64,000 bases of DNA. It comes from a bacterium (lineage in GTDB: Bacteria > Patescibacteriota > Minisyncoccia > Phycocordibacterales > UBA9973). Below, one piece after another: positions 4,639 through 54,753 of this stretch. Both the position numbers and the translations under genes were made by a program. Positions within the stretch are counted from its first letter, which is position 1. The number at the start of each line of letters is the position of its first letter. The stretch covers positions 1,491 to 65,490 of the forward strand of contig JAKAKW010000012.1 in the NCBI GenBank assembly GCA_021824345.1. Direction: 5' to 3'. The notes under the pieces are model-generated. The model saw only the letters and a list, made by a program, of their open reading frames with translations. It searched no databases and had not been told where the DNA came from.

Positions 4639-4655
4639 CAGAAGTTTGCGATATA

Positions 4656-38927: not shown

Positions 38928-39590
38928 TTATTTTACCCACTTTGCCACCTCTTCCATGGGCCGGCGGATTTTTTCCGGCTGTTCATTTACCCGATATCCG
39001 AAGGCAGCCATGCAGGCAACGCCGAAATGGTCCGGATTCAAGATTTTTTCCTCTGTTAGAATGTCTTCCAATTGATCGCGGTTGAATCCCTCAATGGGAC
39101 AGGAATCTATTCCCAAAAAGGCGGCGGAAGTGAGCATATTGCCAAGCGCGATGTAGCTTTGTTTGCACGCCCAGTCAAAAACGGAACGGTCGGTGTCCAG
39201 ATTGAAATCATTCTTTTGCCACTCGTCCAGACGCGCCATCCTTTTCCCGATCTTTTCGGAATCGTTATGCTGCACCTCGGCCATGAAGTTTCTAAGATAT
39301 TCAGAATTAGGCCGCAAGTCTTTTGCCTTTCGGGCGAGAATTACAACAAAATGGCTGGCAGTGGGGAGCTGTTTCTGCGCGCCCCAGGCGACCTTGCGGA
39401 TTTTTTCCCTGATTTCAGGATTTTGCAGGACTACGAATTTCCACGGTTCAAAACCGAAAGAGCTCGGGGATAAACGTCCCGTCTCCAGAATAACCTTGAA
39501 ATCTTCTTCCGAAATCTTCTTTTCCGGGTCAAATTCCCTGCAAGCGTGCCGGAAATTAAAAGCGCCTAAAATTTGCTTCTTTGTGTCCAT
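38928..39590 (-). CDS. NAD(P)H nitroreductase family protein
   Basis: Nitroreductase fold motifs (RHACREF, PSSFGFEPWKFVV). 220 aa. Confidence 0.75.
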   Translation of the reverse strand: MDTKKQILGAFNFRHACREFDPEKKISEEDFKVILETGRLSPSSFGFEPWKFVVLQNPEIREKIRKVAWGAQKQLPTASHFVVILARKAKDLRPNSEYLRNFMAEVQHNDSEKIGKRMARLDEWQKNDFNLDTDRSVFDWACKQSYIALGNMLTSAAFLGIDSCPIEGFNRDQLEDILTEEKILNPDHFGVACMAAFGYRVNEQPEKIRRPMEEVAKWVK

Positions 39591-39700
39591 GCTTCTATTA
39601 TACTCTCCCTGTCAAGCGGGGGAGTAAGATTATTTGGCTATTGATGAACATATTTTCCGGTCAGATATTTTTTATGTATTTATAACCGATTTACCTAAGT

Positions 39701-40252
39701 TCATAGATTTTTTAACATGTCGTACCGACCTTTTTTCTTTCCATGTATTACTTCCTCATATTTACCTTTGTTCTCAAAGCCAAGCTTTTCATATAACTTT
39801 AGGGCGGGAATTTGTTCTGGATTATCCATAACATTCAAAGATGCTTGCTTGCCGCCACGTTCTTTTATTTTTTCTAAGATTTCTACCATAAGCTTTTCCC
39901 CCGCATGCTGGCCCCTAATTGCAGGAGAAATATAGACATGTCTAATTCTCCAAAGCCCTCTTTGTATTTCTGATTTATCAATTGCCATTGCCAGGCCTTT
40001 TGTGTCTTTATTATCTTTCAGTAAGAGAGTTATTGCATTAGGATCTTTCAAATGCGCTTTCCAGTGTTTATCTCTTCTGTATGTTTCTCTTCTGACATCT
40101 TCAGGATCTGCGTCAATGGAAAACGCTTCTGGATTTTTTTCTACCGCCTCAAGCCAGATTTCCTTATAATCCCGCCAGTCTTCCGGTCCTGCTGTTTTTA
40201 CAGTAATTACATGCTGTTCAAGATTTGGTTCTTTTAAAAATTCCTTTGGCAT
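39701..40252 (-). CDS. GNAT family N-acetyltransferase
   Basis: Acetyl-CoA binding motif (RGQHAGEKLM...LYEKLGFE). Confidence 0.7.
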   Translation of the reverse strand: MPKEFLKEPNLEQHVITVKTAGPEDWRDYKEIWLEAVEKNPEAFSIDADPEDVRRETYRRDKHWKAHLKDPNAITLLLKDNKDTKGLAMAIDKSEIQRGLWRIRHVYISPAIRGQHAGEKLMVEILEKIKERGGKQASLNVMDNPEQIPALKLYEKLGFENKGKYEEVIHGKKKGRYDMLKNL

Positions 40253-40253
40253 A

Positions 40254-40871
40254 CTATAGATTTTTTATCATCCTGATGATTTCTGGAAATCTTGAGATTA
40301 AGAAATGCCCGTTCTTGCTCTTGTAAATTACGATCTTTGCGTTTTTTAGTTTCTTGCGATATTTTTCCGCATGAGATATGGGAACCACAGGGTCATCAGC
40401 GGAAAACATGAGAATTAATTTCTTTGCATTCTTTTCTAAAAGAGAAAGATTTGGTTTTAACTTGAAACGGGCGGTAGCCAGGCTTTCCCCGGGTTCGCCG
40501 GTTACCGTGTCATCAAACGGGGGACAGACCAGAAAAACAGCTGAAATTTTTTTAGGGAATTTTTTTTCCGATAAATACTTTGCCAAAAACATCCCGCCAA
40601 GAGAACTGCCGATTAAAATTATGTTATTTCGCAAGTACGGGAAAAATCTTTCAAAATGGATTTTCCATTCCTCATATTTAGCATTGTCTGACAAGGGCAT
40701 GCGAGGGCGGATTATTTCAAATTTTCTGCCCAGTTTCTTGTCTAAATACGCATCCTGCCACCTATCTTTATGCAGAGATACTGTTCTCGTCTTCAAATAA
40801 CGGAGGTAGTCTTTATAGGTTTTAAACGTATCTCCTCCGTGCACCAGAAATATTTGTGGTTTGGATTTCAT
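40254..40871 (-). CDS. Alpha/beta hydrolase (YdeN/RBBP9-like serine hydrolase)
   Basis: Nucleophile elbow GSSLGG. 205 aa. Confidence 0.6.
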   Translation of the reverse strand: MKSKPQIFLVHGGDTFKTYKDYLRYLKTRTVSLHKDRWQDAYLDKKLGRKFEIIRPRMPLSDNAKYEEWKIHFERFFPYLRNNIILIGSSLGGMFLAKYLSEKKFPKKISAVFLVCPPFDDTVTGEPGESLATARFKLKPNLSLLEKNAKKLILMFSADDPVVPISHAEKYRKKLKNAKIVIYKSKNGHFLISRFPEIIRMIKNL

Positions 40872-40907
40872 AGCTTGTGATAATTATATATTGTAGGCCA
40901 GGAAAGT

Positions 40908-41531
40908 CTATACTTTCTTTCTTGCCCAGATTTCTATCCAGGAAATATTACGGCGCTTATGCATGTCCGGTAATATCTCGGAAGAAAAAACTTTAAATCC
41001 TTGTTTTTTAAGCATGAACTTTATCTCTTTTTGCGAAAAATATGTATAGAATCGTTCGTACTCGCCTGTAAGCTTTTCTTTTTCATACATTTCTCCTCTT
41101 CCTTTCCTTACTCCGATGTGTAATATCCCGCTAGGTTTCAGGACTTCGTAAAATTCCTTTATCGCCCTTGGGACATCTTTTCTCTTTAAATGAAGCAATA
41201 CGGCCTCTGCCCATATTCCGTCAAAAGTTTCTTTCGGGAAATTCATTTTTAGCAGATCCACGCATTTAAAGCTTGCCTTTTTTGCTTCTTTTTTTGCAAG
41301 ATTTATCAATACCGGTGATACGTCAATGCCGGTTGCTTTCAAACCATGTTGAGTAAAAAATTTTGCGTCTCTGCCTCCTCCGCATCCAACGTCCAGAATG
41401 TGATCATTGGCGGAAAATAATTTTACAAAAGGGAGCCGTTTAATCGGAATGGCTGTCTTACTTTTTTCCAGGTATTTTTTGCCCATTTTGTTGTATGTCT
41501 CTAGAGTTTTTCCGTACGCGGATTTTCTCAT
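40908..41531 (-). CDS. Class I SAM-dependent methyltransferase
   Basis: SAM motif I ILDVGCGGGRD. Confidence 0.7.
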   Translation of the reverse strand: MRKSAYGKTLETYNKMGKKYLEKSKTAIPIKRLPFVKLFSANDHILDVGCGGGRDAKFFTQHGLKATGIDVSPVLINLAKKEAKKASFKCVDLLKMNFPKETFDGIWAEAVLLHLKRKDVPRAIKEFYEVLKPSGILHIGVRKGRGEMYEKEKLTGEYERFYTYFSQKEIKFMLKKQGFKVFSSEILPDMHKRRNISWIEIWARKKV

Positions 41532-41539
41532 AATGAAAT

Positions 41540-41941
41540 TTATTTTCCCAAATATTCCAATACCCTCGGCAAAAAGATAATCAGTCCGACGGCGAATGCG
41601 GCGATGGCAGAAAGAAGCACCGCGCCGGCTGCCACGTCCTTGGTGTCTTTGGCGTAAGGATGATATTCAGGCGAAGTAAGGTCCATGTCTATTTCAATGG
41701 CGGTGTTGAATGCTTCGGCGGAAAGGACCAGTCCGAAGGTAAGCACAAGCGCGATCCACTCAAGAGGGGAGATGCCGAAGGCAAAGCCCAAAGCGATGGC
41801 ACAGGCCATGAGGAAGAAGTGTATCCAGGCGTTGTGGGTGCCTTTCAAGAAAATCCAAATCCCCCGGCCGGCATGAGTGAAGCTTTCGGCGCGCTTTACC
41901 AGGGAGAATTCCTTTTTTTCGGATAGTTTTGCTTCGGGCAT
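41540..41941 (-). CDS. dgkA: Diacylglycerol/undecaprenol kinase (DgkA family)
   Basis: 133 aa, three TM. Motifs HAGRG, NTAIE. Confidence 0.7.
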   Translation of the reverse strand: MPEAKLSEKKEFSLVKRAESFTHAGRGIWIFLKGTHNAWIHFFLMACAIALGFAFGISPLEWIALVLTFGLVLSAEAFNTAIEIDMDLTSPEYHPYAKDTKDVAAGAVLLSAIAAFAVGLIIFLPRVLEYLGK

Positions 41942-41942
41942 A

Positions 41943-42053
41943 TTGTTTAGCTGAATAGGGCTGACGCCCCGCGAGCATGACCAAAGTACAGAGTGCTTTT
42001 GTCATGCTTGCCTTCGGCTTGTTTAGCTGAATAGGGCTGACGCCCCACAAGCA
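41943..42053. repeat. Two 35-bp direct repeats (TTGTTTAGCTGAATAGGGCTGACGCCCC[G/A]C[G/A]AGCA) at 41943-41977 and 42019-42053, flanking a hairpin
   Basis: Seen directly: 33/35 identity, 76-bp period. Intervening AGCATGAC-n17-GTCATGCT inverted repeat. Confidence 0.6.
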
Positions 42054-42165
42054 CTCGTAGAGTATAGCAAGCTTAATGGAAAAATCAATATTGCGTGAAG
42101 AATAGTCTATTGATGGGTCGTCAGCTCGGAGATGGTCACGAATGAGAGTTTTTTGACGTCTTTTG

Positions 42166-42345
42166 CTATCCTTTTGCATATGTCCACACAGGAGGTTCAA
42201 AATCAAAACTTAAGCCGGAGGAACTATCATGGAGCCACATACTATTGTCGTATTTTTCTAACTCAACGAAAGCACAATCTCCAATTTCTTTAAGTTCTCC
42301 CCATTTCAATATATCCCTAAATAAAACCCTCATCGGTCCTGGCAC
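42166..42345 (-). pseudogene. Remnant of a histidine-phosphatase gene (C-terminal ~57 codons), paralogous to the intact gene at 52901-53506
   Basis: Minus-strand translation GPMRVLFRDILKWGELKEIGDCAFVELEKYDNSMW aligns with GGPMRVLFRDILKWGELVEIGDCSYVELEKKDN of the full-length protein. No N-terminal part is present. Confidence 0.5.
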
Positions 42346-42349
42346 AATT

Positions 42350-42889
42350 TTAGACAGTAATTTCTAAAGCAGCTTTTGCAAGGACCTCTTTAATAAAATC
42401 GTTCTTTCCGGCCCCGTATGCTCGCCGATCATTCGGGTATTGGCGGGCCAGCCTCTCTTTCAGTTGCGCATATTCTTGTGCAACTTTAGGATGTTTTAGA
42501 TAGTAATTCTTTATTAGGAGGTGGTTTTTCCATTCCGTACTATTTTTTTCTACAAGATGCAGGTTAACTGTTCTATTTTCTGCAGGACCTTTAGCATACA
42601 AGATTCTCTCCTGTATGCCTTCCTCTCCTCTATAATAATAATTAAAAGATGCGAGCCGATCTTTCAATCCTCGAGCAATATCAAGAGAGGGGACAACGGC
42701 AAAGATGTCGAGTATGGGTTTTGCGGGGATGTTCGGTATGGAAGTACTGCCTCCATGAGACACTTCTAAAATCTCACCCGGGAAATTATCCAACAAGAAT
42801 TTTTTCTCTTCCTCAAAGAGTTTACCCCATTTATTATTATGCGGTTTCAATATAACTTTTGTTCTGTCTAGGCCTAAATCTTGAGGCAT
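42350..42889 (-). CDS. GrpB family protein (UPF0157, nucleotidyltransferase-like)
   Basis: GrpB signature (HGGSTSIP...KPILDI; NLHL motif). 179 aa. Confidence 0.7.
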   Translation of the reverse strand: MPQDLGLDRTKVILKPHNNKWGKLFEEEKKFLLDNFPGEILEVSHGGSTSIPNIPAKPILDIFAVVPSLDIARGLKDRLASFNYYYRGEEGIQERILYAKGPAENRTVNLHLVEKNSTEWKNHLLIKNYYLKHPKVAQEYAQLKERLARQYPNDRRAYGAGKNDFIKEVLAKAALEITV

Positions 42890-42950
42890 ACTTTGATTGT
42901 ATCAAAAAAATGGGTCGCGCGAACAGCGGCCCTATCTGCCTTGTTTAATA

Positions 42951-44258
42951 TTAATCAGTGAGAACTTTTCGTTCTATTTCATCAAAACTGTAACCTGTCG
43001 TGAAATGATCTTCAAAATTCTGCATTGCCGGTTCGCCGACATATTCTTTTCGGCGGGACGCATAATGCATGGCTAATGCCATTTCTTCAGGAACGCCTAC
43101 GCAGTCAAGCGGTTTGAATCCTTCAATGCCGAGAATCCGCCGAAAAAGCGGCAAGAGTTTCGTATGGGTGTATAGATCAGCGCCGAATATATCTACCACT
43201 TCCTCTCTTGGAAGAAAGGCCGAAAAACAGGCAAAGAGGAACACGCATTTCGGGCACCGCTTGCACCAATATCCTTTCTTTAAAAGAAGTTGCGTGGGAC
43301 GCGGAAGCCAGAAATATGTATTACAGCTTGTAACATAGCGCAGATATTTTGGATACTTCACAAAACGTCGCACTATTTCCAGCTCGCTGTACTTTCGCAA
43401 GGGCGATATCGTCTTGATGTCGGGCGTTATAAAAGTTTGAATGTAATCGTTCGTCATCTGTTCTGCCTCGGATGATTTACACCACTGATGGTTCACCGGA
43501 AGTCCCAGGTAGGTAAGATTTCCGAAATCGGCGCTGCGCTCATTGGAAAATACGATTGAATCATATCCCAAGAGTTCTGCGAGCAACACCGCGATAAAAG
43601 TAAAAGTGGAGACCGATGGGTATGCGCTGGATATTCCAAAAAGAGACATGGCCATCTCAAGATACGGATCGCGGCGGCGGCTGACCCGGATATTTTTTGC
43701 TCCCACCAATTTGGCGATGCGCTTGTGGGCCGGCGTCGGAGCGAAGGCAAAGTAATCAAATGGCGTGCTTGATGCCTTTAATATTTCGGCGGACAGAATG
43801 GAATCTTTGCCTGCGCCGTTTAAAAGAAGCGATCGCGCGGGTAACTTTAATCGTGCCGGCTCGGGGATCGTAGCAGAGGCATTATACGGAAACTCAATAA
43901 GGTTATGGAAATCCATCTTCATGTCGTAGAAGAACTCTCCAAGCCCGTTCAGGTAGAGCGAATTCCAGAATTGCGCCTGTTCGCGCGAAAGGGTAAATCC
44001 TTCAATGTGAATGTTCTTAGTCGGGAAGACGCACCAATAGTTGATGCCAAGCATTAGTAGAAGCGCTTGAAGTGTTGGTTTTAGCGCTTCTTCCGGCACA
44101 TTTTTCCAGGACTCGCGCGGCACGTCTTCCAGAAATATGCGGTCGGTGAAAGTTTTAGTTATTCCAATCTTAAATTTCACGCGATAGGTAAAAGCGATGC
44201 TTGAATGAGCAGTGTCTATTTTATATGAGCCGAAAGTAAAAGATGAAACGCGCGGCAT
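42951..44258 (-). CDS. QueC-like PP-loop ATPase with ~150-aa N-terminal extension
   Basis: PP-loop-like LLLNGAGKDS. C-terminal zinc cluster TSCNTY...WCKRCPKC resembles the QueC motif T.TCYNG...GCGHCAAC. 435 aa. Confidence 0.5.
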   Translation of the reverse strand: MPRVSSFTFGSYKIDTAHSSIAFTYRVKFKIGITKTFTDRIFLEDVPRESWKNVPEEALKPTLQALLLMLGINYWCVFPTKNIHIEGFTLSREQAQFWNSLYLNGLGEFFYDMKMDFHNLIEFPYNASATIPEPARLKLPARSLLLNGAGKDSILSAEILKASSTPFDYFAFAPTPAHKRIAKLVGAKNIRVSRRRDPYLEMAMSLFGISSAYPSVSTFTFIAVLLAELLGYDSIVFSNERSADFGNLTYLGLPVNHQWCKSSEAEQMTNDYIQTFITPDIKTISPLRKYSELEIVRRFVKYPKYLRYVTSCNTYFWLPRPTQLLLKKGYWCKRCPKCVFLFACFSAFLPREEVVDIFGADLYTHTKLLPLFRRILGIEGFKPLDCVGVPEEMALAMHYASRRKEYVGEPAMQNFEDHFTTGYSFDEIERKVLTD

Positions 44259-44314
44259 TTCTATATGGTATCACAATTACGAACCTTAACGTTCTTCTGA
44301 GTGGCGTTATAAAT

Positions 44315-44902
44315 TTATTGGTTGTTAATACGGCTATGATAACCAAGTTCTAAATCTTTTAGTAGTCGAGAAAAAGATGCTTCATTATCTCCCTCCCATG
44401 CATACCAAGTTATAAAGTTACCTCCATGTGATTTACTTATTATATTTAACACTTTTTGAACAACCGAGAAAATTTTTTCTATTTCTAAAGTATATATTTT
44501 CTCTTGTTGTGGGTTTTTGGGTTCATGCGCTGTAATGTTGTGTCGAAGAGTTTTAATTCTTTTTATCTCTTCTTGGATAGTGCTCAAGTGATAATTTGCC
44601 TCTCTTATATCATTAGAAGGTAGATTTTGTATTAAGGTTTGCAATTTGAGACTATCTTTTGGTTTATCGAAGAATTTATAAAGATCAGTAATGAAAGCAT
44701 TTTCAGTTGCATATAAAACACCACTAAAAATTCCACCATACCGGTTAAGGATACTGGCACGTCTATTTACTTCCTCTTTACCAACTTCCGGTATTGAAAG
44801 TGATTTACGGATATACTTCCAGATTTGAAAGCAACCATATGCACGATTCATTCTATGTACCAGCTTCCCAAAATCAGTTGTGGTGTCTATGTTAATCTCC
44901 AT
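44315..44902 (-). CDS. Hypothetical protein with HEPN-like R-x5-H motif (possible abortive-infection/RNase)
   Basis: LRHNITAHEP. AT-rich gene. 195 aa. Confidence 0.4.
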   Translation of the reverse strand: MEINIDTTTDFGKLVHRMNRAYGCFQIWKYIRKSLSIPEVGKEEVNRRASILNRYGGIFSGVLYATENAFITDLYKFFDKPKDSLKLQTLIQNLPSNDIREANYHLSTIQEEIKRIKTLRHNITAHEPKNPQQEKIYTLEIEKIFSVVQKVLNIISKSHGGNFITWYAWEGDNEASFSRLLKDLELGYHSRINNQ

Positions 44903-44928
44903 GTTTTAATTAATGAGCCCTTGGATAC

Positions 44929-45396
44929 CTACATTTTAAGATGAGCCCATCTAATCCAGTTACCCAGGAACCTACCTGATAAGTCGACAAGAGTTAAATC
45001 TTTTCCATTTACGGGACTCTTTTGTCCATGAAAAAGATTACATCTTATTTGGTATATAAAATCAACTACCTGACTAAAATCGGAAGTATCTTTTAGTTCT
45101 TTATATTCTCCGCGGTGATTAGGGCGCATGTCCTCAATGCGCGGATACTGCATCAGTCCTTGTAAGTCTGATGTGTCGAATTCTTTATCTATAAATAATT
45201 GTTTAAGTGAATTATCTGAATTTTTCAGCCAATCAATTTTTTGAGTATCACTATCTGCTTCAGATTCTGAAACCATATACGCATCTAGGCACATGTAATA
45301 GATGAAAAATCGAACGAACGGATCCAAATTATCTTTGGAAAGTTTCTTTTCTCTTAGAATCCACCAGTCGACTATATTTTTGAGGTTTTCATTCAT
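44929..45396 (-). CDS. HEPN-domain protein (R-x4-HG motif)
   Basis: IRCNLFHGQKS near the C-terminus of a 155-aa, helix-rich protein. Confidence 0.5.
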   Translation of the reverse strand: MNENLKNIVDWWILREKKLSKDNLDPFVRFFIYYMCLDAYMVSESEADSDTQKIDWLKNSDNSLKQLFIDKEFDTSDLQGLMQYPRIEDMRPNHRGEYKELKDTSDFSQVVDFIYQIRCNLFHGQKSPVNGKDLTLVDLSGRFLGNWIRWAHLKM

Positions 45397-45410
45397 AGCT
45401 GATATTGACG

Positions 45411-45478
45411 CTCCTCGGACTCCGAAAGCGTCTCAAACTGGCTGGCATTATGGCACGAAGTTAGAACTCGGAAGCCTT
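45411..45478. repeat. ~70-nt island repeat element, full copy 1
   Basis: TTGACGCTCCTCGGACTCCGAAAGCGTCTCAAACTGGCTGGCATTATGGCACGAAGTTAGAACTCGG. About 82% identical to the copy at 50917-50983. Confidence 0.6.
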
Positions 45479-45480
45479 AA

Positions 45481-46062
45481 TTAATCAAAAGAATTAACCA
45501 CATCGGGCAGTTCAAGACAAGCATCTTCACTATCAAAAGCCCCTGAAAAATGTTTAGCATTATGTTTTATTATTAATTCCGCGCTTAACTTTTCTTTCAG
45601 TATATTCCCATGTTCTAACGGAACGTAAGGGTCGTTATCGGAATGGATTAAAACGAATTTATTTGCCTTATTTCTTATCTTTTCAAATTCAAAGTCTTTG
45701 ACAAAGAAATTTTTCAATTCATCAAAGCCTAAATTATTCACAAACCCGGCGACAAGAACGACGGTTCCCACCTTTTCATTTTCATCAAGAGACTCCAGAT
45801 ACCTAAGTATCGTCACACTGCCGGCGCTGTGTCCAATGAGGTTGATGTCCTCGTTTGGTTCGCCGACCGCTTCTTTTAAAACCGGCAACCACTTTTCTAA
45901 ATTAGGATTTTCTGTATCGGGAAAGCTAAGAACATCTACTTCATATCCCTTTTTCTCCAATTCTCTTTTCGCATAAGGGTACCAGCAATATTCCGGATAA
46001 CCTCCCCAGCAGTGAGCGATGATAGCCTTTTTCATATTTTTATTATACAAAACATGGGTCAA
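45481..46062 (-). CDS. Alpha/beta hydrolase, YdeN/RBBP9-like serine hydrolase
   Basis: Nucleophile elbow IGHSAGS. 193 aa. Confidence 0.6.
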   Translation of the reverse strand: MTHVLYNKNMKKAIIAHCWGGYPEYCWYPYAKRELEKKGYEVDVLSFPDTENPNLEKWLPVLKEAVGEPNEDINLIGHSAGSVTILRYLESLDENEKVGTVVLVAGFVNNLGFDELKNFFVKDFEFEKIRNKANKFVLIHSDNDPYVPLEHGNILKEKLSAELIIKHNAKHFSGAFDSEDACLELPDVVNSFD

Positions 46063-46357: not shown

Positions 46358-49300
46358 ATGCACGAGACATCCGACAGGAAAATAATTCTGGCGACCGAGA
46401 GAAATGACACGTCTCATGAACTGAGAGGACACTTCAATCGGGACACATATCTAAAAACCGTAGAGCGCGCACTTGAGCGTGCCGAGACAAAAGAGAAAAT
46501 CATTGCGGTCATACGCGACGCAATCCGCGGACAGGCGGGACGAAAGGATCTTGAGGAACTCTTCGCATCAATCCGGTTCACATCGGATAAGAGCGACGAG
46601 GAGCGCTTTATCACCACCGACCGCTACATCACGATGGAGCTCGACGAGATTGAAGAATCACTTGCCGATCCAGACACGCGCGCCGAGTTCGACCGGATGT
46701 CCTTTGACGAATTCAAGAATGAGACACGGGAAGAGGTTGGCAGTCTTGTCGCACCAGAACTCAAGGACGCAGGCGCACCAGAACTTACACGGGTACTTAA
46801 GTATGTCGGCGAACGGCTGATCGTGCCCGACTACAATGTATCGGAGCTTATTGGGTTCATAAACGACTACTGCACCATCGCGCCGGGAAGAGAAGTGATT
46901 GTAGATCGGTGCGTATTCGGCGCAGATCCGAAAGAAAAGAATAATTTGTTCAGCGCGCGTAGCGATCTTAAGGAAATCCTCGAAGATCCCGAAACGTGCG
47001 AGAAGATAGACATTATCATATCCAGCAATCTCATCGAGCGATTCACATTCTCCGCCGGTCTGTCGCATTCGACGGATAAATCGGATTCAGATATGCGACT
47101 GTTCTTGAATGCGGTGTTGATTGAGAGCCTTAAACTTGCCGCGCACAACGAATATCTGACGATCACGTCCAAAGATCGGATCTACGCGCACGCTGTCAAT
47201 AGGATCACTGAAAAACGGCTCGCGGATATCCATGCGTTTGACTCCACCCTTACCACGATCGACCTGGACAATCTCCGCGATTTCCAAATACTGGAAGGTC
47301 TGCCTGAAGCAGGCCGTGCGTTCTGCAAGAAGATCTATGAAGCAACCGGGCTCGCGGGCACCGGCGCTTTCAACCGGATCGGTATCAGCTATTTCTCCGA
47401 CGCACTTGCCGACCCGGAAAAGTTTCGCAAGCTCGAACTCGCGTATGACCTTGGTGCGATCAGCGGTTTTACCTCTTCCTACGAAGGTGATCTGACGAAA
47501 AGAATTTTCACCTGGAGCGATGAACAGATTAAGAGCGTCGCCATGGGCTTCAAGACCGGCCTCGTGAAGGGGCCTTCGGATGGACGCGCCATCGCGCGGA
47601 TTCTCACCCTAAATACCGATGACCTCCTCTCTCTCAACGAAGCCGGGGAGACACTCTTGGTCGGCAATGAACTGCTCAATGCGCTCCGCGCATCGAGCCC
47701 CGAAGACCGCGCAGAGTATAAAAGCATCCTCGCTTCGATCGAGGGAAACCAATGGGTTAAGGAGGAGAAAAAAATGGAACTCCTACGGTATGCTGAAGAA
47801 CTCCGCACACTCACCCCGGACGCCCGTGCATTCCTCGATGCATGGCACGCGCACCAAGGACAATTCTACAGTAGCCAGGTTGAAGCGTACACCGAACCAC
47901 TCAAGAAAGCGAGCCTCTATCCCGATGTCCTCGCCCGCATGGCCGATCGGTACCGCGACCTGGACAACCAGAAGCTTATGTTCAATCTGCTCTCGGACGG
48001 ATATATGGACCTCATAGACATCGACCGCGAGCTCTCCGCGTTCGCGCGGGATCCCAACGCCTACCTCCTCAAATTTCCTCGCCCGTCCGATGTCTTCGAT
48101 CATTTTCGCGAGTTCGAAGACATTATGAATCGCCGCAATCAACCCATGCGCGACGATGTTCACAAAACAATTTTTTTCAGCACGTTCGTCGCGCAGGCCA
48201 CGACCCGCATATCGAATAATGTGGATTTCCCTTACACTACCGACGAGCGCCACGTTTCAGAACTCGCGGGGCGCCTCGCTTCTTGGTACGCCAGCGCGTA
48301 TGATGCGCAGGAAATTCTTTCCACGATCGTCCACATGCACGACGATCTTGCAGACGTCACGTCGGTGCTCGAGCGCATCACGGATGACCCGGATTCCTTT
48401 TTTAAACAGCGCCCGCAGGACGTGATGAAGAATTACGACGCAATCGCGGCGGAACTTGCGAGCCGCGGCAAACGTCTCCACCAGACTACGCTCGACGTGG
48501 CATTCGAGAACACCTTGCGCATGAACCCCGCTCTCCTCATGCGGGAAACCGAGTTTCCATTCACGTCGGAACAGCAAACGATCGCGGACCTCTTCCAGCG
48601 TATTCACAAGTCCCCGTCCCACGAGATAAAGAACATGGACGTCGAGATCGCTGAACAGATCGCTCGGAACGGCGATCTCTCCACCTATGAGGACCGCTAC
48701 CGCGTGATCGAAGAGATCTTCGTCAAGAATAATCTTCCATTTGTCGGCAAGCAAGAGAAGGTCTGCGAGGTGCTGCACCCTGAGATCGAGACGCGGGAAA
48801 ATTCCAGCCCGGTTCTCCAATCCCTCCACGGCACAAACGCGCGGAGGCTACTCGTCTTCAAGGATCTGATGCGCGCAAGCGTACAGAGCCTCAATATGAA
48901 CCTAGAGCAGTATCTCCTAGTCCTTAAGAATGGCGCTACAGTCCTTGACCGATTCGAATCCGGAGCAACGCTCGACGACGACGAAACAGAACAGTTGAAA
49001 TATTTCTTCCGAAAGATAAACGCTCTTACCGAGAACACGCGATTGAACGCGAATGCCACGACCTTTGATCCCGATCGGACGAGTCTCGCCGAGAACCTCG
49101 CCGCACTTCGAAAGAATTTCGGTGTACGCAAGGGGGAAACGATTACCGACAAGTTCACTCGGACGTTCCTGCGGCGGATCGACATCAACTCCATTGATGA
49201 CGCGCTTAGGCAGTTCATCAATCTGCGGAGCGTCGCAGACACGCGCAACCGTGAATTCGCATCATCCGGAAAAATTATTCTCAGTCCGACGGATCTCGCG

Positions 49301-50725
49301 AAAGGCGTCGACTCCGCCTTCTTCGACACCTTCCTCGACCGCGGCGTCTATTCCCCAGAGTTCATCGGCGCAGAAACGGAAGTCGCGAAAGCAAAGGCGA
49401 AGCGAACCGACATGACCCCATGGGACACCGACGTGATCACTGTCGGAGACCGCGATGCGCGCGTGATCGTAGAAGACTCAACGGCTAGCGCATACGGCGA
49501 CGTTATCATAATCGTCCGCGATCGCGGCCAATTCGACCATACCAAGGTCGGCCAACCGCTCCCTGCCGACTCGGGCAAAATGGAACTCTTCAGAACGGGC
49601 GGGACGAACAGCGACCACTTTGGAATCCGCACAGGGTTCGGCTCCACGGAGATCAGCGCGCTTCTCGTGAAGGATAAGATTGCAACGGATGATCGTGCAC
49701 TCTCCGAAATAAAATTCTCAATCGCGAAGAAGGGTTTCTACATCCCCGTCTGCGATAAATCGGGGCGCGTGCTCTTTTCGAGTAATGAATTTGAAACATA
49801 CCGCGCTATCTTCCGTGGCATCGACCGCTACCACGGGGACCCGATCGCTGTGGATGAAACATGGCGCGAATCCCTCTTCCGTGAGGACATCGAATCCGTC
49901 GCACAGACAGAAGGGAATTTGGAAAAGCTCCAAGTGCTCCGCGCCGGGCTCTACGCCGATCTGGCGCACGACCTTAAGGGCAACGGGATCACTCTGCACC
50001 AGGAACGCTATGACGACAGCGTCGTCGGCGCACGGATCGTTGACACCGGCTCGACGGGCCGCGGTGCCGCGCTTGACGAGGGATACGACTTCGACTTTGT
50101 CGTGAAGCTCGACGACGTCGACTTCAACAAGGTTCCCGCCATTACCAATACACTCGAATCCAAATATCCCCTCAACACGAGTTACGAACGCAACGGCATG
50201 CACACGTTCCGCTTTAAGAATTTCGAGCGCGACGGCGAGACGATCAGCCTCGATATCAGCTTCATAAAGAAATCCGACAGCGAAGAACTAGACGCAAATG
50301 AGGCTGTCACGCAGAAATATAATTCGATCCGAAACAAGAGCGGCGAAAAGGCGTGGCTCGACACGCTGACGAACGTGCGCTTCGCAAAACGCGAACTGAA
50401 ACGCGCGGAATGTTATAAGAAAGGAATGGCGGGAGTAGGAGAACAGCAAGGGGGGCTTGGCGGTATCGGCGTGGAGAACTGGATACTCAAGTACGGTGGC
50501 AATGCGATAAAAGCGTTCCGCGACTTCCACGACCACGCATACCGCGAGGGCACGCTCGTGCCGTTCGCAGAATTCAAACAGACTTATCACGTGTTCAGTG
50601 CGGGAGAGAATGTCCGGGGTGGCGTGCGGGCCGAGGATTTCGTCGCACATATGGACGAAACAGGATACCGCAAAATGGCGGAGCTTTCCCGAAAGTTCGT
50701 TCTATCGGAAGCTGACTTGCTCTGA
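46358..50725 (+). CDS. Giant (1455 aa) protein with C-terminal Pol-beta-superfamily nucleotidyltransferase motif; visibly GC-rich relative to neighbours
   Basis: An uninterrupted 4.37-kb ORF with an in-frame stop 4 codons upstream of the ATG. Near-C-terminal GSTGRGAALDEGYDFDFVV (hG[GS]-x9-13-DhD nucleotidyltransferase signature, as in GlnE/GlnD, cGAS/DncV-like and MNT enzymes) followed by GGLGGIGVENWIL. The remaining ~1150 aa have no motif I recognise. The flanks are AT-rich. Confidence 0.6.
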   Translation: MHETSDRKIILATERNDTSHELRGHFNRDTYLKTVERALERAETKEKIIAVIRDAIRGQAGRKDLEELFASIRFTSDKSDEERFITTDRYITMELDEIEESLADPDTRAEFDRMSFDEFKNETREEVGSLVAPELKDAGAPELTRVLKYVGERLIVPDYNVSELIGFINDYCTIAPGREVIVDRCVFGADPKEKNNLFSARSDLKEILEDPETCEKIDIIISSNLIERFTFSAGLSHSTDKSDSDMRLFLNAVLIESLKLAAHNEYLTITSKDRIYAHAVNRITEKRLADIHAFDSTLTTIDLDNLRDFQILEGLPEAGRAFCKKIYEATGLAGTGAFNRIGISYFSDALADPEKFRKLELAYDLGAISGFTSSYEGDLTKRIFTWSDEQIKSVAMGFKTGLVKGPSDGRAIARILTLNTDDLLSLNEAGETLLVGNELLNALRASSPEDRAEYKSILASIEGNQWVKEEKKMELLRYAEELRTLTPDARAFLDAWHAHQGQFYSSQVEAYTEPLKKASLYPDVLARMADRYRDLDNQKLMFNLLSDGYMDLIDIDRELSAFARDPNAYLLKFPRPSDVFDHFREFEDIMNRRNQPMRDDVHKTIFFSTFVAQATTRISNNVDFPYTTDERHVSELAGRLASWYASAYDAQEILSTIVHMHDDLADVTSVLERITDDPDSFFKQRPQDVMKNYDAIAAELASRGKRLHQTTLDVAFENTLRMNPALLMRETEFPFTSEQQTIADLFQRIHKSPSHEIKNMDVEIAEQIARNGDLSTYEDRYRVIEEIFVKNNLPFVGKQEKVCEVLHPEIETRENSSPVLQSLHGTNARRLLVFKDLMRASVQSLNMNLEQYLLVLKNGATVLDRFESGATLDDDETEQLKYFFRKINALTENTRLNANATTFDPDRTSLAENLAALRKNFGVRKGETITDKFTRTFLRRIDINSIDDALRQFINLRSVADTRNREFASSGKIILSPTDLAKGVDSAFFDTFLDRGVYSPEFIGAETEVAKAKAKRTDMTPWDTDVITVGDRDARVIVEDSTASAYGDVIIIVRDRGQFDHTKVGQPLPADSGKMELFRTGGTNSDHFGIRTGFGSTEISALLVKDKIATDDRALSEIKFSIAKKGFYIPVCDKSGRVLFSSNEFETYRAIFRGIDRYHGDPIAVDETWRESLFREDIESVAQTEGNLEKLQVLRAGLYADLAHDLKGNGITLHQERYDDSVVGARIVDTGSTGRGAALDEGYDFDFVVKLDDVDFNKVPAITNTLESKYPLNTSYERNGMHTFRFKNFERDGETISLDISFIKKSDSEELDANEAVTQKYNSIRNKSGEKAWLDTLTNVRFAKRELKRAECYKKGMAGVGEQQGGLGGIGVENWILKYGGNAIKAFRDFHDHAYREGTLVPFAEFKQTYHVFSAGENVRGGVRAEDFVAHMDETGYRKMAELSRKFVLSEADLL

Positions 50726-50989: not shown

Positions 50990-52141
50990 TCAACTGTTTG
51001 TAGAAATTTTATTGATAAACCTCCTTGCTCTTTCATCAGGAGACGTTTTATCTACTTTCGGTTCCCAAGCTTTATATACTTCCAAAATTCCTGTATAAAT
51101 AGCATTGCCTGTTGTTATAAAGCGGTGTTGAAGTAACAACACTGCATTGCTTTCAACTAAAAAAATAAAACCAGGTTTTACACAATTTAACGATAAATGG
51201 TCAATAGTTCCTGAGTTTATAATTCTACGAGAGAATTCTTCAAGAGTGTCCAATAAGGGAATGAGGTTTTCTGAATGTGCTCTAGAAAAAGAATAAAGTC
51301 TGTGTTGTCCGTCAATGATCCAACAAGCGCTGTAGCTATTTTTAATAGTCAAAGTGCCGACTTCTGAGTGATTTTTCGACTCTAATCCTGAAATTTTCAC
51401 GAAATTCTTATCTCCTTCCTTTAGCGAAATAATCACATTTGTCGGAAAAATCCCTCCATTATCAAGGAATTGTTGGATTTTTCTTATACGATTTTTATCC
51501 AACATTCTTTGGTAAAAATCTTCTTTTTGTGATCTTCTTCGTGCAACATAAGAAAATTTTAGTAATTCTTTTGGATTTGCGTAAAAACTATATGTTACGT
51601 ATTTTCCTATCTTTGTTTTTAAAGCGGCAACATTTAATTGTTCGTTTTCTGGCGGCCGAATTCCATAATCAGCAAGGAAATTAAAAACTGCGTATTCTCC
51701 TATTTTTTCGTAAAGCTCACTGTAATATTCTAGAAGATTTTCATCAGCATACCAGAAATGAGTTTCTTTGAATAATTCTTTTTCTGATTCAGGAATCTCA
51801 ATTTTTTTTGTTATGAAAATAAATTTGACAAATTTACATTGGGAATATTCTGGAATAGTTTTGTATCCTTCTAGAACCATTCTGGCTCTTTCTTTGGTAG
51901 CTAATATATCTTGGCGAAGATTTTTTTTGACTTTTCTGCCTGCTGCTTTACATTCAAAAACGAATAATATATCCTTGTATCTTCCACAAGCGTCAATCTG
52001 ATTCTTTTCTCCATTAGGCGCTATATGAAAATCTTGTCCCCCTTTTACATCAGAAAACTTTAGTTTTTCTTCTAAAAAAATTTTTACCTCGTTTTCAAAA
52101 TCTTTTCCGTAATCTTTTTTTTCTAATTCAATTTCTTCCAT
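50990..52141 (-). CDS. DGQHR-domain protein (DndB/DpdB-like, ParB/Srx-fold)
   Basis: Exact DGQHR motif in ACWIIDGQHRLYSF. 383 aa, AT-rich. Confidence 0.7.
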   Translation of the reverse strand: MEEIELEKKDYGKDFENEVKIFLEEKLKFSDVKGGQDFHIAPNGEKNQIDACGRYKDILFVFECKAAGRKVKKNLRQDILATKERARMVLEGYKTIPEYSQCKFVKFIFITKKIEIPESEKELFKETHFWYADENLLEYYSELYEKIGEYAVFNFLADYGIRPPENEQLNVAALKTKIGKYVTYSFYANPKELLKFSYVARRRSQKEDFYQRMLDKNRIRKIQQFLDNGGIFPTNVIISLKEGDKNFVKISGLESKNHSEVGTLTIKNSYSACWIIDGQHRLYSFSRAHSENLIPLLDTLEEFSRRIINSGTIDHLSLNCVKPGFIFLVESNAVLLLQHRFITTGNAIYTGILEVYKAWEPKVDKTSPDERARRFINKISTNS

Positions 52142-52425
52142 AAAATAGTTTTTATAAATGATAAAGAATATTTTTCTTTAATCCTTAAGCCTAAATATTC
52201 TACAACATTGTCGTTTTTTATTCAACCTTGATTTTTTTGAAAAAGTGCTATACTTATTCCCTGTATAGGCATGATCTTTGACTGATAAACACTGTATTTC
52301 TACTGTGATCAGTTCGGGATACGTGCCCACTTTGCCTCCTCTAGAAATAAAGAACAAACAAGCCTTTTATTAAATGGCTATTGCTTGTTGTTTATTTCAA
52401 AGTGCATACCTGTACCGAAAGGTAT

Positions 52426-52896
52426 ATGGAGACAAATGGATTCTCACAAAAATTAATAAGGGAAACGATTAAATGCTTCAAAGAAGAAGACGGTATTTCG
52501 CTATCTGAAAATGAAGCAATAGCGATATTGGAATCCTTTGCCGGTTTGTTCCTAGCCTTTGCGGGTCAAAAGCCTCGCGAGCCCATGTTGGGCCGCGAGG
52601 CTTTTCCCTCTGGTCGTAAGGCTCCTGACTTGATATCGGAACTCATTGAACTCTTGGACAAAGTGGACTTGGATGAGCTTGGAATCAAGTCGCGGATTGA
52701 AGACGAGATCAGCAGATTCAATAAATTCAGAACAGGAGTATTGGGTCACAAGCAGGAAAAAGTATCGCTGGATGTGGACGTGCGAAACTACGCAAAATAC
52801 CTTCTCAAAAACGGAACGCTAATGGAGAAAAGAGAACTGCTGTCATGTTTAAAAAGCGAACTAGTTCTCAAAGAAAAAAAGATATTACTGGAATAG
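52426..52896 (+). CDS. Hypothetical protein
   Basis: The track ORF starts at 52381; the internal ATG METNGFSQK at 52426 is more plausible. No motifs. Confidence 0.4.
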   Translation: METNGFSQKLIRETIKCFKEEDGISLSENEAIAILESFAGLFLAFAGQKPREPMLGREAFPSGRKAPDLISELIELLDKVDLDELGIKSRIEDEISRFNKFRTGVLGHKQEKVSLDVDVRNYAKYLLKNGTLMEKRELLSCLKSELVLKEKKILLE

Positions 52897-52900
52897 TGTA

Positions 52901-53506
52901 TTAAGAATCAAAGGGCATTTCAAAGTCCGGTTTTAATCTTTCGTAGTGTATGGGTATAAAGATATTATCTTTTTTCTCCAATTCAACATAAGAGCAATCG
53001 CCGATTTCCACCAGCTCACCCCATTTCAGTATATCTCTGAAAAGAACTCTCATAGGTCCACCGTGGGTTACAATGGCAACAGTTTTATATTCAGGATTGT
53101 TCTTAATTTTCTCAAACGTGCCCGTGATTCTTTTGCTAAAATCCGTATAAGCTTCTGCTCCTTCAACTGTGTTAAATCTATTCTTCAGCAATTCGACTTG
53201 CTCGGGAAATTTATTTTTCGCCTCATCTTTATTTATTCCCGTTAATATTCCGTACTGGTTCCTTTCTCTCAAATCATTCTCAACTATAACCTTACAACCT
53301 GCCATGGAAGCAAGAATTTCCGAGACTTCCTTTGCACGCGATAAGGGGCTGGAGAATATTATTTCAATGTCCTTATCCTTCAGTAATTGAGCAAGATCTC
53401 TTGCTTGTTCTCTGCCTTTTTCTGAAAGATGATCATCATAATCCCCCCCATAAAGGTTTTCTATATCGCCGGTGGACTCACCATGTCTAATGAAGAAAAT
53501 TTTCAT
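52901..53506 (-). CDS. Histidine phosphatase family protein (phosphoglycerate mutase-like)
   Basis: RHGES catalytic motif at the N-terminus. 201 aa. Paralogous fragment at 42166-42345. Confidence 0.7.
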   Translation of the reverse strand: MKIFFIRHGESTGDIENLYGGDYDDHLSEKGREQARDLAQLLKDKDIEIIFSSPLSRAKEVSEILASMAGCKVIVENDLRERNQYGILTGINKDEAKNKFPEQVELLKNRFNTVEGAEAYTDFSKRITGTFEKIKNNPEYKTVAIVTHGGPMRVLFRDILKWGELVEIGDCSYVELEKKDNIFIPIHYERLKPDFEMPFDS

Positions 53507-53524
53507 AGTTCTTTATATGTCATG

Positions 53525-54451: not shown

Positions 54452-54498
54452 ATAATAAAATATAAAGCCTCTCGGTCACCTGACTTGTCATAAGACTG

Positions 54499-54569
54499 CT
54501 GCCGGACTTGGATTCGAACCAAGATTGCGTGATTCAGAGTCACGATGCCTACCATTAGCAGATCCGGCA
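54499..54569 (-). tRNA. tRNA-Gln(CUG)
   Basis: Minus-strand cloverleaf: U1-A72 first pair (a Gln hallmark), anticodon arm CGTGA-CTCTGAA-TCACG (anticodon CTG), T-arm CTTGG-TTCGAAT-CCAAG. Confidence 0.7.
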
Positions 54570-54654
54570 ATATAATGCGATACCCTTATGTTGCAAGCAT
54601 ACAATAATACAAAAATGGATTTTTTTCAACGTTTGATTCTGCTACAATACCAGA

Positions 54655-54720
54655 ATGCTTAAAGCTGCAATTTTTGACATGGACGGGACGATGCTTGAGA
54701 CGGAAAATATACTAGAGTAG
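54655..54720 (+). pseudogene. N-terminal remnant of a HAD-superfamily hydrolase (21 codons)
   Basis: MLKAAIFDMDGTMLETENILE* carries HAD motif I (DxDGT) and then stops. Confidence 0.4.
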
Positions 54721-54753
54721 TAAAAAAACTAGTGATATAATTTAAATAATAAA

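What the first reader, a model, noticed from the sequence alone, without database searches (positions are those of the whole stretch)
42951..44258. N-terminally extended QueC-like PP-loop protein in the island
The PP-loop-like NGAGKDS plus the C-terminal C...CxxCxxC cluster (TSCNTY...WCKRCPKC) parallel QueC (SGGxDS; T.TCYNG...GCGHCAAC). However, the protein is about 200 aa longer, with an unrelated N-terminal domain. The spacing between the first and second Cys (19 residues) differs from QueC (8). QueC-like accessory proteins are known from type IV CBASS and Qat defence systems.
Basis: partly seen in the sequence, partly recalled or inferred. Interest (0 to 1): 0.55.

Follow-up and report, generated by a model that had tools for sequence, protein, structure and literature searches.

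The report
MurL-type cell-wall epimerase, QueC-like fold
The gene encodes a Patescibacteria member of the MurL family, an ATP-using enzyme that turns L-glutamate into D-glutamate on a cell-wall precursor.

Summary
The ORF is real: 42951-44258, minus strand, 435 aa. Both motifs are real and conserved: NGAGKDS at aa 147-153 and C312-x19-C332-xx-C335-xx-C338.

[quoted passage not shown] It carries Pfam MurL_N plus MurL_epimerase_C and matches NCBIfam NF041275 at E=2e-68 over its full length.

- The catalytic domain is a PP-loop ATPase closest to QueC, QatC and Cap9.
- A profile-profile alignment to QueC (E=3.8e-5) pairs the P-loop and all four cysteines with QueC's zinc ligands.

The defence reading does not hold:
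- No PADLOC hit and no Qat or CBASS partner genes.
- No conserved neighbourhood across 76 loci.
- The gene is conserved at 63-77% identity in at least 73 Patescibacteria species genomes.
- 17 distant relatives are natural fusions to MurD2-type ligases.

One point is unexpected. This clade has no MurD2-type ligase: 121/121 MurDs carry the canonical D182/K348 pair, although they lack K319. A murI-murD gene pair is conserved, and one contig carries MurL, MurI and MurD together. The clade also replaces several residues that are near-invariant elsewhere in the family. The exact role in these organisms is therefore less certain than the family assignment.

The parts
42951..44258 (-). Complete ORF, 435 aa plus stop: MurL-family protein
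   Evidence: ORF listing. NF041275 MurL E=2e-68, aa 5-419 vs model 8-412/447. Precomputed Pfam PF26299 MurL_N + PF26298 MurL_epimerase_C. AF2 model pLDDT 86, pTM 0.86.
43884..44258 (-). MurL_N domain (aa 1-125): three long beta-strands followed by helices. It has no detected structural relative and probably packs on the catalytic domain.
   Evidence: Secondary structure and pLDDT 85-96 in the full model. pLDDT is only 67 when modelled alone. Foldseek finds nothing significant and QatC is not hit.
43224..43838 (-). PP-loop ATPase (QueC-like) catalytic core, aa 141-345
   Evidence: Foldseek hits to MJ0690, QatC, QueC and Cap9. hhalign to the QueC family over MurL 141-341. hmmsearch hits to TtuA, MJ0690 and MnmA.
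43800..43820 (-). PP-loop (ATP pyrophosphatase loop) NGAGKDS, aa 147-153. The family consensus is xGGGKDS; G149A is specific to this clade.
43476..43493 (-). NHQWCK motif, aa 256-261. N256, H257, Q258 and K261 are family-invariant. The motif aligns where QueC has its YPDC substrate motif, so it is a candidate substrate or catalytic pocket. C260 is clade-specific.
43245..43331 (-). Four-cysteine cluster T-S-C312-N ... W-C332-K-R-C335-P-K-C338, a predicted structural zinc site equivalent to that of QueC and QatC
   Evidence: Invariant across the family. Aligned residue-for-residue to QueC C188/C197/C200/C203. The QatC Zn site C334/C354/C357/C360 is described in PMC13279940.
42954..43223 (-). C-terminal helical region (aa 346-435), absent from QueC. 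It contains the invariant K382-P383-x-x-C386-V387-G388...E392 motif (nt 43083-43115). C386 is a candidate acid/base residue.
   Evidence: The role of C386 is inference.

Best explanation
The gene encodes a Patescibacteria (Paceibacteria-type) member of the MurL family, a cytoplasmic peptidoglycan-precursor enzyme.

Proposed mechanism:
1. The QueC-like PP-loop domain binds ATP-Mg through NGAGKDS.
2. [quoted passage not shown]
3. The activated ester makes the C-alpha proton acidic, so the residue is inverted. This could occur through enzyme acid/base residues or an oxazolone intermediate.
4. [quoted passage not shown]

The four cysteines hold a structural zinc as in QueC. MurL_N and the C-terminal helical region probably form the pocket for the UDP-MurNAc-peptide.

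Shown here: family membership, the PP-loop fold, zinc-site equivalence, conservation, and fusion of relatives to MurD2-type ligases.
Taken from the literature: ATP/Mg dependence, AMP release and one-way L-to-D conversion for Xanthomonas, Micromonospora and Salinispora MurL.
Inferred: that this clade does the same reaction, which residues act as bases, and that the metal is zinc.

In this clade the enzyme probably works beside a conventional MurI-MurD route. One possibility is that it rescues L-Glu-containing product made by a MurD that has lost the stereo-gating Lys319.
For: Family:
- NF041275 E=2e-68 over the full length.
- MurL_N + MurL_epimerase_C.
- 2201 family clusters in the representative library.
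- 57 of 68 family-conserved positions are retained; mean identity to other members is 33%, against 36.5% among those members.

Functional anchor:
- 17 of the top 150 representatives are MurL fused to a MurD-like ligase.
- These ligases carry the MurD2 signature: R at K348, P at A414, Y/F at L416, no Lys at K319.

Chemistry:
- PP-loop homology fits the published ATP-to-AMP stoichiometry and the adenylation hypothesis (PMC5808125, PMC8788868).
- QueC, Cap9 and QatC also activate a carboxylate with ATP (PMC13329287).

Housekeeping status:
- 63-77% identity in at least 73 species genomes.
- Native GC.
- Variable housekeeping neighbours.

Compatibility with L-Glu use: clade MurDs lack K319 in 120/121 cases and share TTPExT with MurD2-type ligases. 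K319T makes E. coli MurD accept L-Glu (PMC8788868).
Against: - The score against the curated MurL equivalog model is 231 bits against a cutoff of 700. That cutoff is clade-specific, though: a MurD-fused relative scores only 401.
- No MurD2-type ligase was found in the clade. 121/121 MurDs have D182 and K348, and R358K/E197D switches MurD2 to D-Glu.
- A murI-murD pair is conserved in 4 of 4 loci examined.
- L074 carries MurL, MurI and MurD on one contig. This contradicts the published rule that MurL hosts lack D-Glu-forming genes.
- The clade replaces residues that are 96-99% conserved elsewhere: K->C76, H->A212, N->M113, G->A149.
- There is no gene linkage to any mur gene in 76 loci.
- The murD and murI content of the window's own genome could not be examined.
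Confidence: 0.6

Rival explanations
1. Same family and same first step (PP-loop adenylation of a carboxylate), but this Patescibacteria subfamily has shifted to another substrate or outcome. Examples would be epimerising or amidating a different muropeptide or peptide C-terminus. The reason is that these organisms already make D-Glu with MurI and load it with a canonical-type MurD.
For: - A conserved murI-murD pair, and MurL, MurI and MurD on one contig.
- 121/121 MurDs have D182/K348.
- Clade-specific replacement of K76, H212, N113 and G149, and gain of C76 and C260.
- The lowest score to the curated MurL model among the members tested.
- No linkage to murD, unlike Xanthomonas or the fusions.
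- PP-loop relatives such as QueC perform amidation from the same adenylate.
Against: - 57 of 68 conserved positions are kept, including every motif around the presumed pocket: NHQ-K, SCN, KP-C-G-E.
- Divergence from other members is ordinary for the family.
- Clade MurDs lack the K319 gate, so L-Glu product is plausible.
- No alternative substrate is suggested by any neighbour.
- Coexistence is shown directly in one genome only.
Confidence: 0.28
2. One reading: a QueC-family accessory enzyme of an anti-phage system (QatC-like or Cap9-like) that attaches a 7-deazaguanine derivative to a partner protein within a defence island.
For: - Fold similarity to QatC, QueC and Cap9.
- The same C-x19-CxxCxxC spacing and a similar length to QatC.
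- Some defence-like genes lie nearby: HEPN/AbiU2, a weak DzbB-like hit, and an orphan DpdB/DndB-like gene.
- The flanks are low in GC.
Against: - No PADLOC hit for the protein.
- No qatA, qatB or qatD, no CD-NTase and no TGT nearby.
- QatC and QueC signature motifs are absent.
- The N-domain does not match QatC's extension.
- The x19 spacing is coincidental: it ranges from 12 to 31 with a mode of 14 across the family.
- The gene is present at 63-77% identity in at least 73 species genomes, in unrelated housekeeping contexts.
- Relatives are fused to Mur ligases.
Confidence: 0.02
3. A tRNA- or sulfur-transfer PP-loop enzyme (TtuA, MnmA or ThiI-like), with the cysteines binding an Fe-S cluster.
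For: The best sequence-level PDB hits are TtuA and MnmA at the P-loop. Weak Pfam hits to tRNA_Me_trans occur in 4 of 36 members. TtuA-type structures appear among the Foldseek hits.
Against: - Those matches cover only the P-loop region, about 40 residues.
- The Cys cluster aligns collinearly with the QueC zinc site.
- There are no RNA-binding domains.
- Relatives are fused to MurD-type ligases.
- Characterised MurL needs only ATP and Mg.
Confidence: 0.03

Closest known systems
[quoted passage not shown]
   Same: Full-length collinear homology with the same two Pfam domains. The family-invariant P-loop, NHQ-K, SCN...CxxCxKC and KP-C-G-E motifs are all present. The size is about 435-450 aa.
   Different: - About 33% identity, and 231 bits against the 700-bit equivalog cutoff.
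- Not next to or fused with a MurD2-type ligase.
- The clade's MurD has the D182/K348 signature, and a murI-murD pair is present in related genomes.
- Clade-specific changes at K76, N113, G149, H212 and S260.
QueC, 7-cyano-7-deazaguanine synthase (PF06508; PDB 3BL5)
   Same: PP-loop Rossmann-like core, and a C-terminal four-Cys zinc site that aligns Cys for Cys (hhalign E=3.8e-5; Foldseek TM 0.57 on QueC). Both perform ATP-dependent activation of a carboxylate.
   Different: No Pfam QueC hit. The QueC substrate motifs YxQxHxxE, VPxRN and YPDC are absent. MurL has an extra ~140-aa N-terminal domain and a ~90-aa C-terminal helical region. The P-loop is GGGKDS/NGAGKDS rather than SGGxDS.
QatC of the QatABCD anti-phage system (PDB 9Y01 chain B)
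   Same: A QueC-like core with N- and C-terminal extensions, similar length (428 vs 435 aa), C-x19-CxxCxxC spacing in this particular protein, a remodelled active site, and a Foldseek hit at E=1e-4.
   Different: No PADLOC QatC hit, no QatC motifs and no qatA/B/D neighbours. The N-terminal domains are not shown to be related: published QatC has a 4-stranded parallel sheet, while MurL_N has three long consecutive strands plus helices. The spacing match is coincidental within the MurL family.
MJ0690 (PDB 3K32) and TtuA/MnmA-type PP-loop ATPases
   Same: They give the best Foldseek E-value (MJ0690) and the best sequence-profile hits at the P-loop.
   Different: Similarity is limited to the nucleotide-binding half. 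Their C-terminal elements and substrates (tRNA) are different.

Membership tests
[quoted passage not shown] | Two-domain architecture MurL_N (PF26299) + MurL_epimerase_C (PF26298) | tested here: met
   Precomputed Pfam for the identical protein P0001 and all 120 close homologs. The local Pfam copy lacks these models.
[quoted passage not shown] | Score at or above the curated equivalog cutoff of NF041275 (700 bits) | tested here: not met
   231 bits, E=2e-68, full length. The model is Xanthomonadales-specific: a MurD-fused relative scores 401 and the best representative 571.
[quoted passage not shown] | Family-invariant residues (P-loop GKD, NHQ-K, SCN, CxxCxKC, KP-C-V-G, E392) | tested here: met
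   57 of 68 conserved positions are kept and 11 show clade-specific changes.
[quoted passage not shown] | Partner MurD2 (L-Glu-adding ligase), adjacent, fused or present in the genome | tested here: not met
   No Mur ligase in the window. Only 1 of 81 loci has a MurD within 10 kb. 121/121 clade MurDs have D182/K348, against R in 17/17 fusion ligases. The clade MurDs do lack K319. The window's whole genome could not be examined.
[quoted passage not shown] | Host lacks glutamate racemase or D-amino-acid aminotransferase (published rationale) | tested here: not met
   Tested on clade relatives, not on the window's own genome, which could not be examined. L074 has MurL, a MurI-like gene (TIGR00067 E=3.5e-33, both catalytic Cys motifs) and MurD. 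A murI-murD pair is also present in L096, L097 and L098.
[quoted passage not shown] | [quoted passage not shown] | not testable with these tools
   Known for the Xanthomonas, Micromonospora and Salinispora enzymes (PMC5808125, PMC8788868).
QueC family (PF06508) | PP-loop SGGxDS | tested here: met
   Present as the variant NGAGKDS (family GGGKDS). It aligns to SGGxDS and to TtuA, MJ0690 and MnmA P-loops.
QueC family (PF06508) | C-terminal C-x(n)-CxxCxxC zinc site | tested here: met
   C312/C332/C335/C338 align to QueC C188/C197/C200/C203. The metal itself was not tested.
QueC family (PF06508) | Pfam PF06508 match above the gathering threshold | tested here: not met
   No hit for this protein at E<=10. 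Only 4 of 36 family members hit, at E>=0.024.
QueC family (PF06508) | Catalytic and substrate motifs YxQxHxxE, VPxRN, YPDC | tested here: not met
   Absent by pattern search and replaced at the aligned positions. The motifs are defined in PMC13329287.
QatC / QatABCD | QatC profile match and QatC-specific motifs | tested here: not met
   PADLOC returns 0 families. The motifs from PMC13329287 are absent.
QatC / QatABCD | Operon with qatA (ATPase), qatB and qatD (TatD nuclease) | tested here: not met
   The neighbours are GrpB, HEPN/AbiU2, Ser_hydrolase and others. There are no such genes in the other contexts either.
Cap9 / type IV CBASS | Adjacent CD-NTase and Cap10 (TGT-like), with a minimal ~185-aa QueC core | tested here: not met
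   The protein is 435 aa. No CD-NTase or TGT is recognised nearby by Pfam or PADLOC. The 1455-aa neighbour has a generic GS..DxD motif only.

The most novel reading that the evidence does not exclude
In Paceibacteria-type Patescibacteria the MurL-like enzyme is not the sole source of D-Glu. It is a strongly conserved, remodelled subfamily (K76C, H212A, N113M, G149A, S260C) that coexists with a conserved murI-murD operon and a MurD that has lost the stereo-gating Lys319. It would then have one of two roles. Either it proofreads or rescues L-Glu mis-loaded onto UDP-MurNAc-L-Ala, or it uses the same PP-loop adenylation chemistry on a different muropeptide carboxylate. Independently of that, recognising MurL as a QueC-like PP-loop/zinc enzyme gives a structural basis for an epimerase that published reviews describe as lacking known domains.
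Probability: 0.3. Interest if true: 0.6.

Novelty: new member of a known kind. Interest (0 to 1): 0.4.

Why it matters
First, a look-alike is removed from the defence-gene candidates. QueC-like folds with extensions are not all QatC or Cap9.

Second, the published distribution of MurL covers some Gamma- and Alphaproteobacteria and rare actinomycetes. Here the family has about 2200 clusters at 50% identity and includes a tightly conserved clade in Patescibacteria.

Third, assigning MurL's catalytic domain to the QueC-like PP-loop group explains its ATP-to-AMP requirement. It also names testable residues: the P-loop, NHQ-K, C386 and the zinc cysteines. MurL has been proposed as a narrow-spectrum antibiotic target.

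Fourth, coexistence with murI-murD in this clade questions the rule that MurL marks organisms without a D-Glu route.

Tried and rejected
- The local Pfam, PADLOC and PDB-sequence searches with the single protein gave nothing useful. The local Pfam copy lacks the MurL models.
- hhalign against a single QueC sequence aligned only the P-loop. A QueC family profile was needed.
- The N-domain modelled alone was of low confidence and matched nothing. I considered a specific MurL-QatC relationship (same length, extensions, x19 spacing) and rejected it as unsupported.
- Guilt by association across 76 loci found no recurrent neighbour beyond def/fmt-type housekeeping genes.
- Literature searches for MurL with PP-loop or QueC, for MurL in Patescibacteria, and for glutamate racemase in Parcubacteria found nothing relevant.
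- Matching contig lengths across the MurL, MurD and MurI hit lists gave no further co-occurrence beyond L074.
Full report
OBSERVATION. The window has a 435-aa ORF at 42951-44258 on the minus strand. NGAGKDS lies at aa 147-153. The cysteine pattern T-S-C312-N...W-C332-K-R-C335-P-K-C338 lies at aa 310-338, with 19 residues between the first two cysteines. E. coli QueC, fetched from the annotated K-12 genome, is 231 aa and has C188-x8-C197-xx-C200-xx-C203. One correction applies: the additional length is about 140 aa before the core and about 97 aa after the Cys cluster, so it is not only N-terminal.

WHAT IT IS. NCBIfam gives a single strong hit to NF041275, the MurL equivalog model (UDP-N-acetyl-alpha-D-muramoyl-L-alanyl-L-glutamate epimerase). 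The hit has E=2e-68 and 231 bits, covering aa 5-419 on model positions 8-412 of 447, and is below the 700-bit cutoff. The identical protein and its 120 best homologs carry the precomputed Pfam domains PF26299 (MurL_N) and PF26298 (MurL_epimerase_C), and JGI names some of them MurL. The local Pfam copy lacks these two models, which is why one search was empty. PADLOC and the PDB sequence search were also empty.

The 700-bit cutoff is specific to Xanthomonadales. Other family members score 243-571 bits, and a natural MurL-MurD fusion scores 401.

MurL is a characterised enzyme, XOO_1319 of Xanthomonas oryzae. [quoted passage not shown] Reviews state that it 'lacks known conserved domains' and that its mechanism is unclear, with adenylation of the alpha-carboxylate as the hypothesis (PMC5808125, PMC8788868).

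DISTRIBUTION AND CONTEXT. The window comes from a Patescibacteria MAG (GCA_027428375.1). The 120 closest homologs are 70-77% identical and come from Paceibacteria, Kaiserbacteria or Parcubacteria-type organisms. A scan of species-representative genomes found the gene at 63-76% identity in 73 genomes, almost all labelled Patescibacteria. An exhaustive HMMER search of 1.84 billion cluster representatives found 2201 family members at E<=1e-3 and 816 at E<=1e-30.

The neighbours in the window are GrpB, a HEPN/AbiU2-like protein, two Ser_hydrolases, DAG kinase, a methyltransferase, a GNAT, a nitroreductase and an unannotatable 1455-aa protein. PADLOC recognises only a weak DzbB-like ORF and an orphan DpdB/DndB-like gene.

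In other genomes the gene sits in unrelated housekeeping contexts: NusA, T2SS ATPase and TIM in one; haem biosynthesis in another; about 6 kb from MraY/FtsW in a third. Clustering all ORFs within 4 kb of MurL in 76 loci shows no recurrent neighbour except def/fmt-type genes in about 13 loci. The gene's GC is 46.6%, the window average is 48.2%, and the flanking accessory genes are at 32-40%. I read this as a native core gene flanked by variable DNA, not a component of an island system.

An AlphaFold2 model built on 30 homologs is confident (mean pLDDT 86, pTM 0.86). Foldseek against the PDB gave these best hits:
- MJ0690 (3K32), E=6e-5.
- QatC in the QatB-QatC complex (9Y01_B), E=1e-4, 452 columns, TM 0.44.
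- QueC (3BL5), E=4e-4, TM 0.57 on QueC.
- Cap9 (9NTO_B).
- After these, TtuA, MnmA and ThiI.

Independently of the model, a profile of 36 diverse family members hits PP-loop ATPases in the PDB at the sequence level. TtuA scores E=1.3e-5, MJ0690 2.3e-4 and MnmA 9e-3, with 'valgGGKDSiVsaelLk' aligned on 'VAVSGGKDSAVTAYVLK'. Scanning the same 36 members against Pfam gives only sub-threshold, tied hits: QueC in 4 members (best 0.024), tRNA_Me_trans in 4 members (best 0.021), and singletons to other PP-loop families.

To test zinc-site equivalence I built a QueC profile from E. coli QueC and ten diverse phage QueCs and compared it with the MurL profile. hhalign gave E=3.8e-5, probability 71% and 178 collinear columns, MurL 141-341 against QueC 2-206. 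GGGKDS pairs with SGGxDS, and C312/C332/C335/C338 pair with QueC C188/C197/C200/C203.

QueC's substrate motifs (YxQxHxxE, VPxRN, YPDC; PMC13329287) are not retained. MurL's invariant N256-H257-Q258-x-x-K261 sits where YPDC would be.

RELATION TO QatC. Published QatC has a QueC core at residues 145-377, a zinc site C334/C354/C357/C360 (the same x19 spacing), and N- and C-terminal extensions (PMC13279940). The resemblance is superficial for four reasons:
- The first Cys spacing in the MurL family ranges from 12 to 31 with a mode of 14.
- QatC-specific motifs are absent.
- The MurL N-domain modelled alone (pLDDT 67) matches nothing significant, and 9Y01 is not among its hits.
- Its three long consecutive strands plus helices differ from the published four-stranded parallel sheet of QatC.

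FAMILY-WIDE CONSERVATION. In 36 sequences down to 28% identity the invariant positions are F7, G150, K151, D152, P214, N256, H257, Q258, K261, S311, C312, N313, W331, C332, C335, K337, C338, K382, P383, C386, V387 and E392. Across 150 representatives, xGGGKDS occurs in 138 and SCN...CxxCxKC in 136.

FUNCTIONAL ANCHOR. Seventeen of the 150 best representatives are 795-893 aa proteins with the MurL part at the N-terminus and a MurD-like ligase at the C-terminus (Pfam Mur_ligase_M/C and MurD-like_N; TIGR01087). I anchored residue numbering on E. coli MurD; the literature numbering omits Met1. On that basis these ligases carry the MurD2 signature described in PMC8788868:
- R at K348 in 17/17.
- P at A414 in 14/17.
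- Y or F at L416.
- D or E at D182.
- No Lys at K319.
This ties the family to the MurD2 step independently of the Xanthomonas work.

THE UNEXPECTED PART. In the Patescibacteria clade the partner looks different. Only one of 81 loci (L074) has a MurD within 10 kb of MurL. That MurD and 120 homologs from Parcubacteria-type organisms all have D at D182 and K at K348, which is the canonical D-Glu pair. In MurD2 the E197D/R358K double mutation switches the enzyme to D-Glu. On the other hand, 120 of the 121 have Asn instead of K319 and share a 'TTPExT' motif with the MurD2-type fusion ligases. K319T is the mutation that lets E. coli MurD accept L-Glu.

L074 also encodes a glutamate-racemase homolog directly upstream of MurD. 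It matches TIGR00067 at E=3.5e-33 (115 bits, cutoff 147) and carries the motifs FDSGSGGLTV, SACNSAS and LGCTHYP, so both catalytic cysteines are present. It lies in a glmS-CDF-murI-PBP-like-murD cluster about 6 kb from a clade-typical MurL with NGAGKDS, NHQWCK and KPLDCVG. Homologs of this MurI are abundant in Parcubacteria-type organisms, and murI sits immediately upstream of murD in three further loci.

The clade therefore appears to have a conventional MurI-MurD route, and MurL exists beside it. This is contrary to the published rationale that MurL hosts lack D-Glu-forming genes.

The clade also differs from the rest of the family at 11 of the 68 positions that are at least 85% conserved elsewhere. 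The changes include K->C76 (Lys in 98% elsewhere), H->A212 (99%), N->M113 (96%), G->A149 in the P-loop (99%) and S->C260 (94%). Its overall divergence is ordinary: 33% identity to other members, against 36.5% among those members. I could not examine the rest of the window's own genome. The 64-kb window contains no murD or murI.

MECHANISM. The best-supported account is as follows. [quoted passage not shown] The activated residue is inverted at C-alpha, and hydrolysis releases the D-Glu product and AMP.
- Shown here: the PP-loop fold, the QueC-type four-Cys site, conservation, and linkage of the family to MurD2-type ligases.
- From the literature: ATP/Mg dependence, AMP release and directionality.
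- Inferred: zinc as the metal, by analogy with QueC and QatC; the pocket role of NHQ-K; C386 or H257 as acid/base residues; an oxazolone route, from general peptide chemistry; and that this clade catalyses the same reaction.

I give 0.6 to the classical reaction, possibly as a rescue of L-Glu product made by a K319-less MurD. I give about 0.28 to a shifted substrate or outcome within the same chemistry, and a few percent to defence or tRNA-modification readings.

NOVELTY. The gene is a new member of a known family. Standard annotation resources already recognise it (Pfam, NCBIfam, JGI names).

I could not find the following in the searchable literature:
- An assignment of MurL to the QueC-like PP-loop/zinc group.
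- A report of the large, tightly conserved Patescibacteria clade.
- A report of its coexistence with murI-murD.
No MurL structure is in the 2026 PDB copy. These points make the finding moderately interesting for peptidoglycan and CPR specialists, but the original defence hypothesis should be dropped.

Noticed in passing
window 46358-50725 (+): A 1455-aa ORF at 54% GC, higher than its surroundings. It has no Pfam, PADLOC or PDB-sequence match. One Pol-beta-type nucleotidyltransferase-like motif (GSTGRGAALDEGYDFD) lies at aa 1231. The ORF is conserved in the same position in three assemblies of this organism.
   Followed up: partly
window 50990-52141 (-): An orphan DGQHR-domain protein (DpdB E=2.8e-14, DndB weaker; Pfam DndB over aa 173-288 only). 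There is no DpdA/TGT or other dnd/dpd genes nearby, its GC is very low (32%), and the C-terminal half does not match the family.
   Followed up: partly
window 44315-45396 (-): Two small low-GC genes lie directly upstream of the MurL gene: a HEPN_AbiU2-like protein (Pfam E=3.5e-9) and a 155-aa protein with a weak match to the C-terminal part of DzbB (PADLOC E=1.2e-5). They could be a toxin or abortive-infection-like pair, and are unrelated to MurL.
   Followed up: partly
window 39000-46000 and 51000-55500: Patches of low GC (32-40%) interrupt a ~50% GC chromosome and hold mostly accessory-type genes: two paralogous Ser_hydrolases at 40254-40871 and 45481-46062, a GNAT, a methyltransferase and GrpB. 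The MurL gene and the DAG kinase gene within them have native GC.
   Followed up: partly
L074 8131-14243; L096 2089-5489; L097 10001-15513; L098 10001-15659: Parcubacteria-type genomes keep murI immediately upstream of murD, often followed by another Mur ligase and a TP_methylase gene. Their MurDs uniformly replace the conserved Lys319 of 'NDSK' with Asn ('NDNNATTPEAT'), a position where K-to-T relaxes D-Glu specificity in E. coli MurD.
   Followed up: yes
representative proteins P0142, P0144, P0150, P0155, P0176, P0181, P0241 and 10 more: Natural single-chain MurL-MurD2 fusions of 795-893 aa exist in uncultured organisms. I did not find them mentioned in the MurL literature I read. They would be convenient for studying substrate channelling between the two steps.
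   Followed up: partly
window 4614-5612 (+): A BRO-N domain protein (Pfam E=5e-11), a domain typical of phage and mobile-element genes. It sits in a lower-GC stretch near the start of the window.
   Followed up: no
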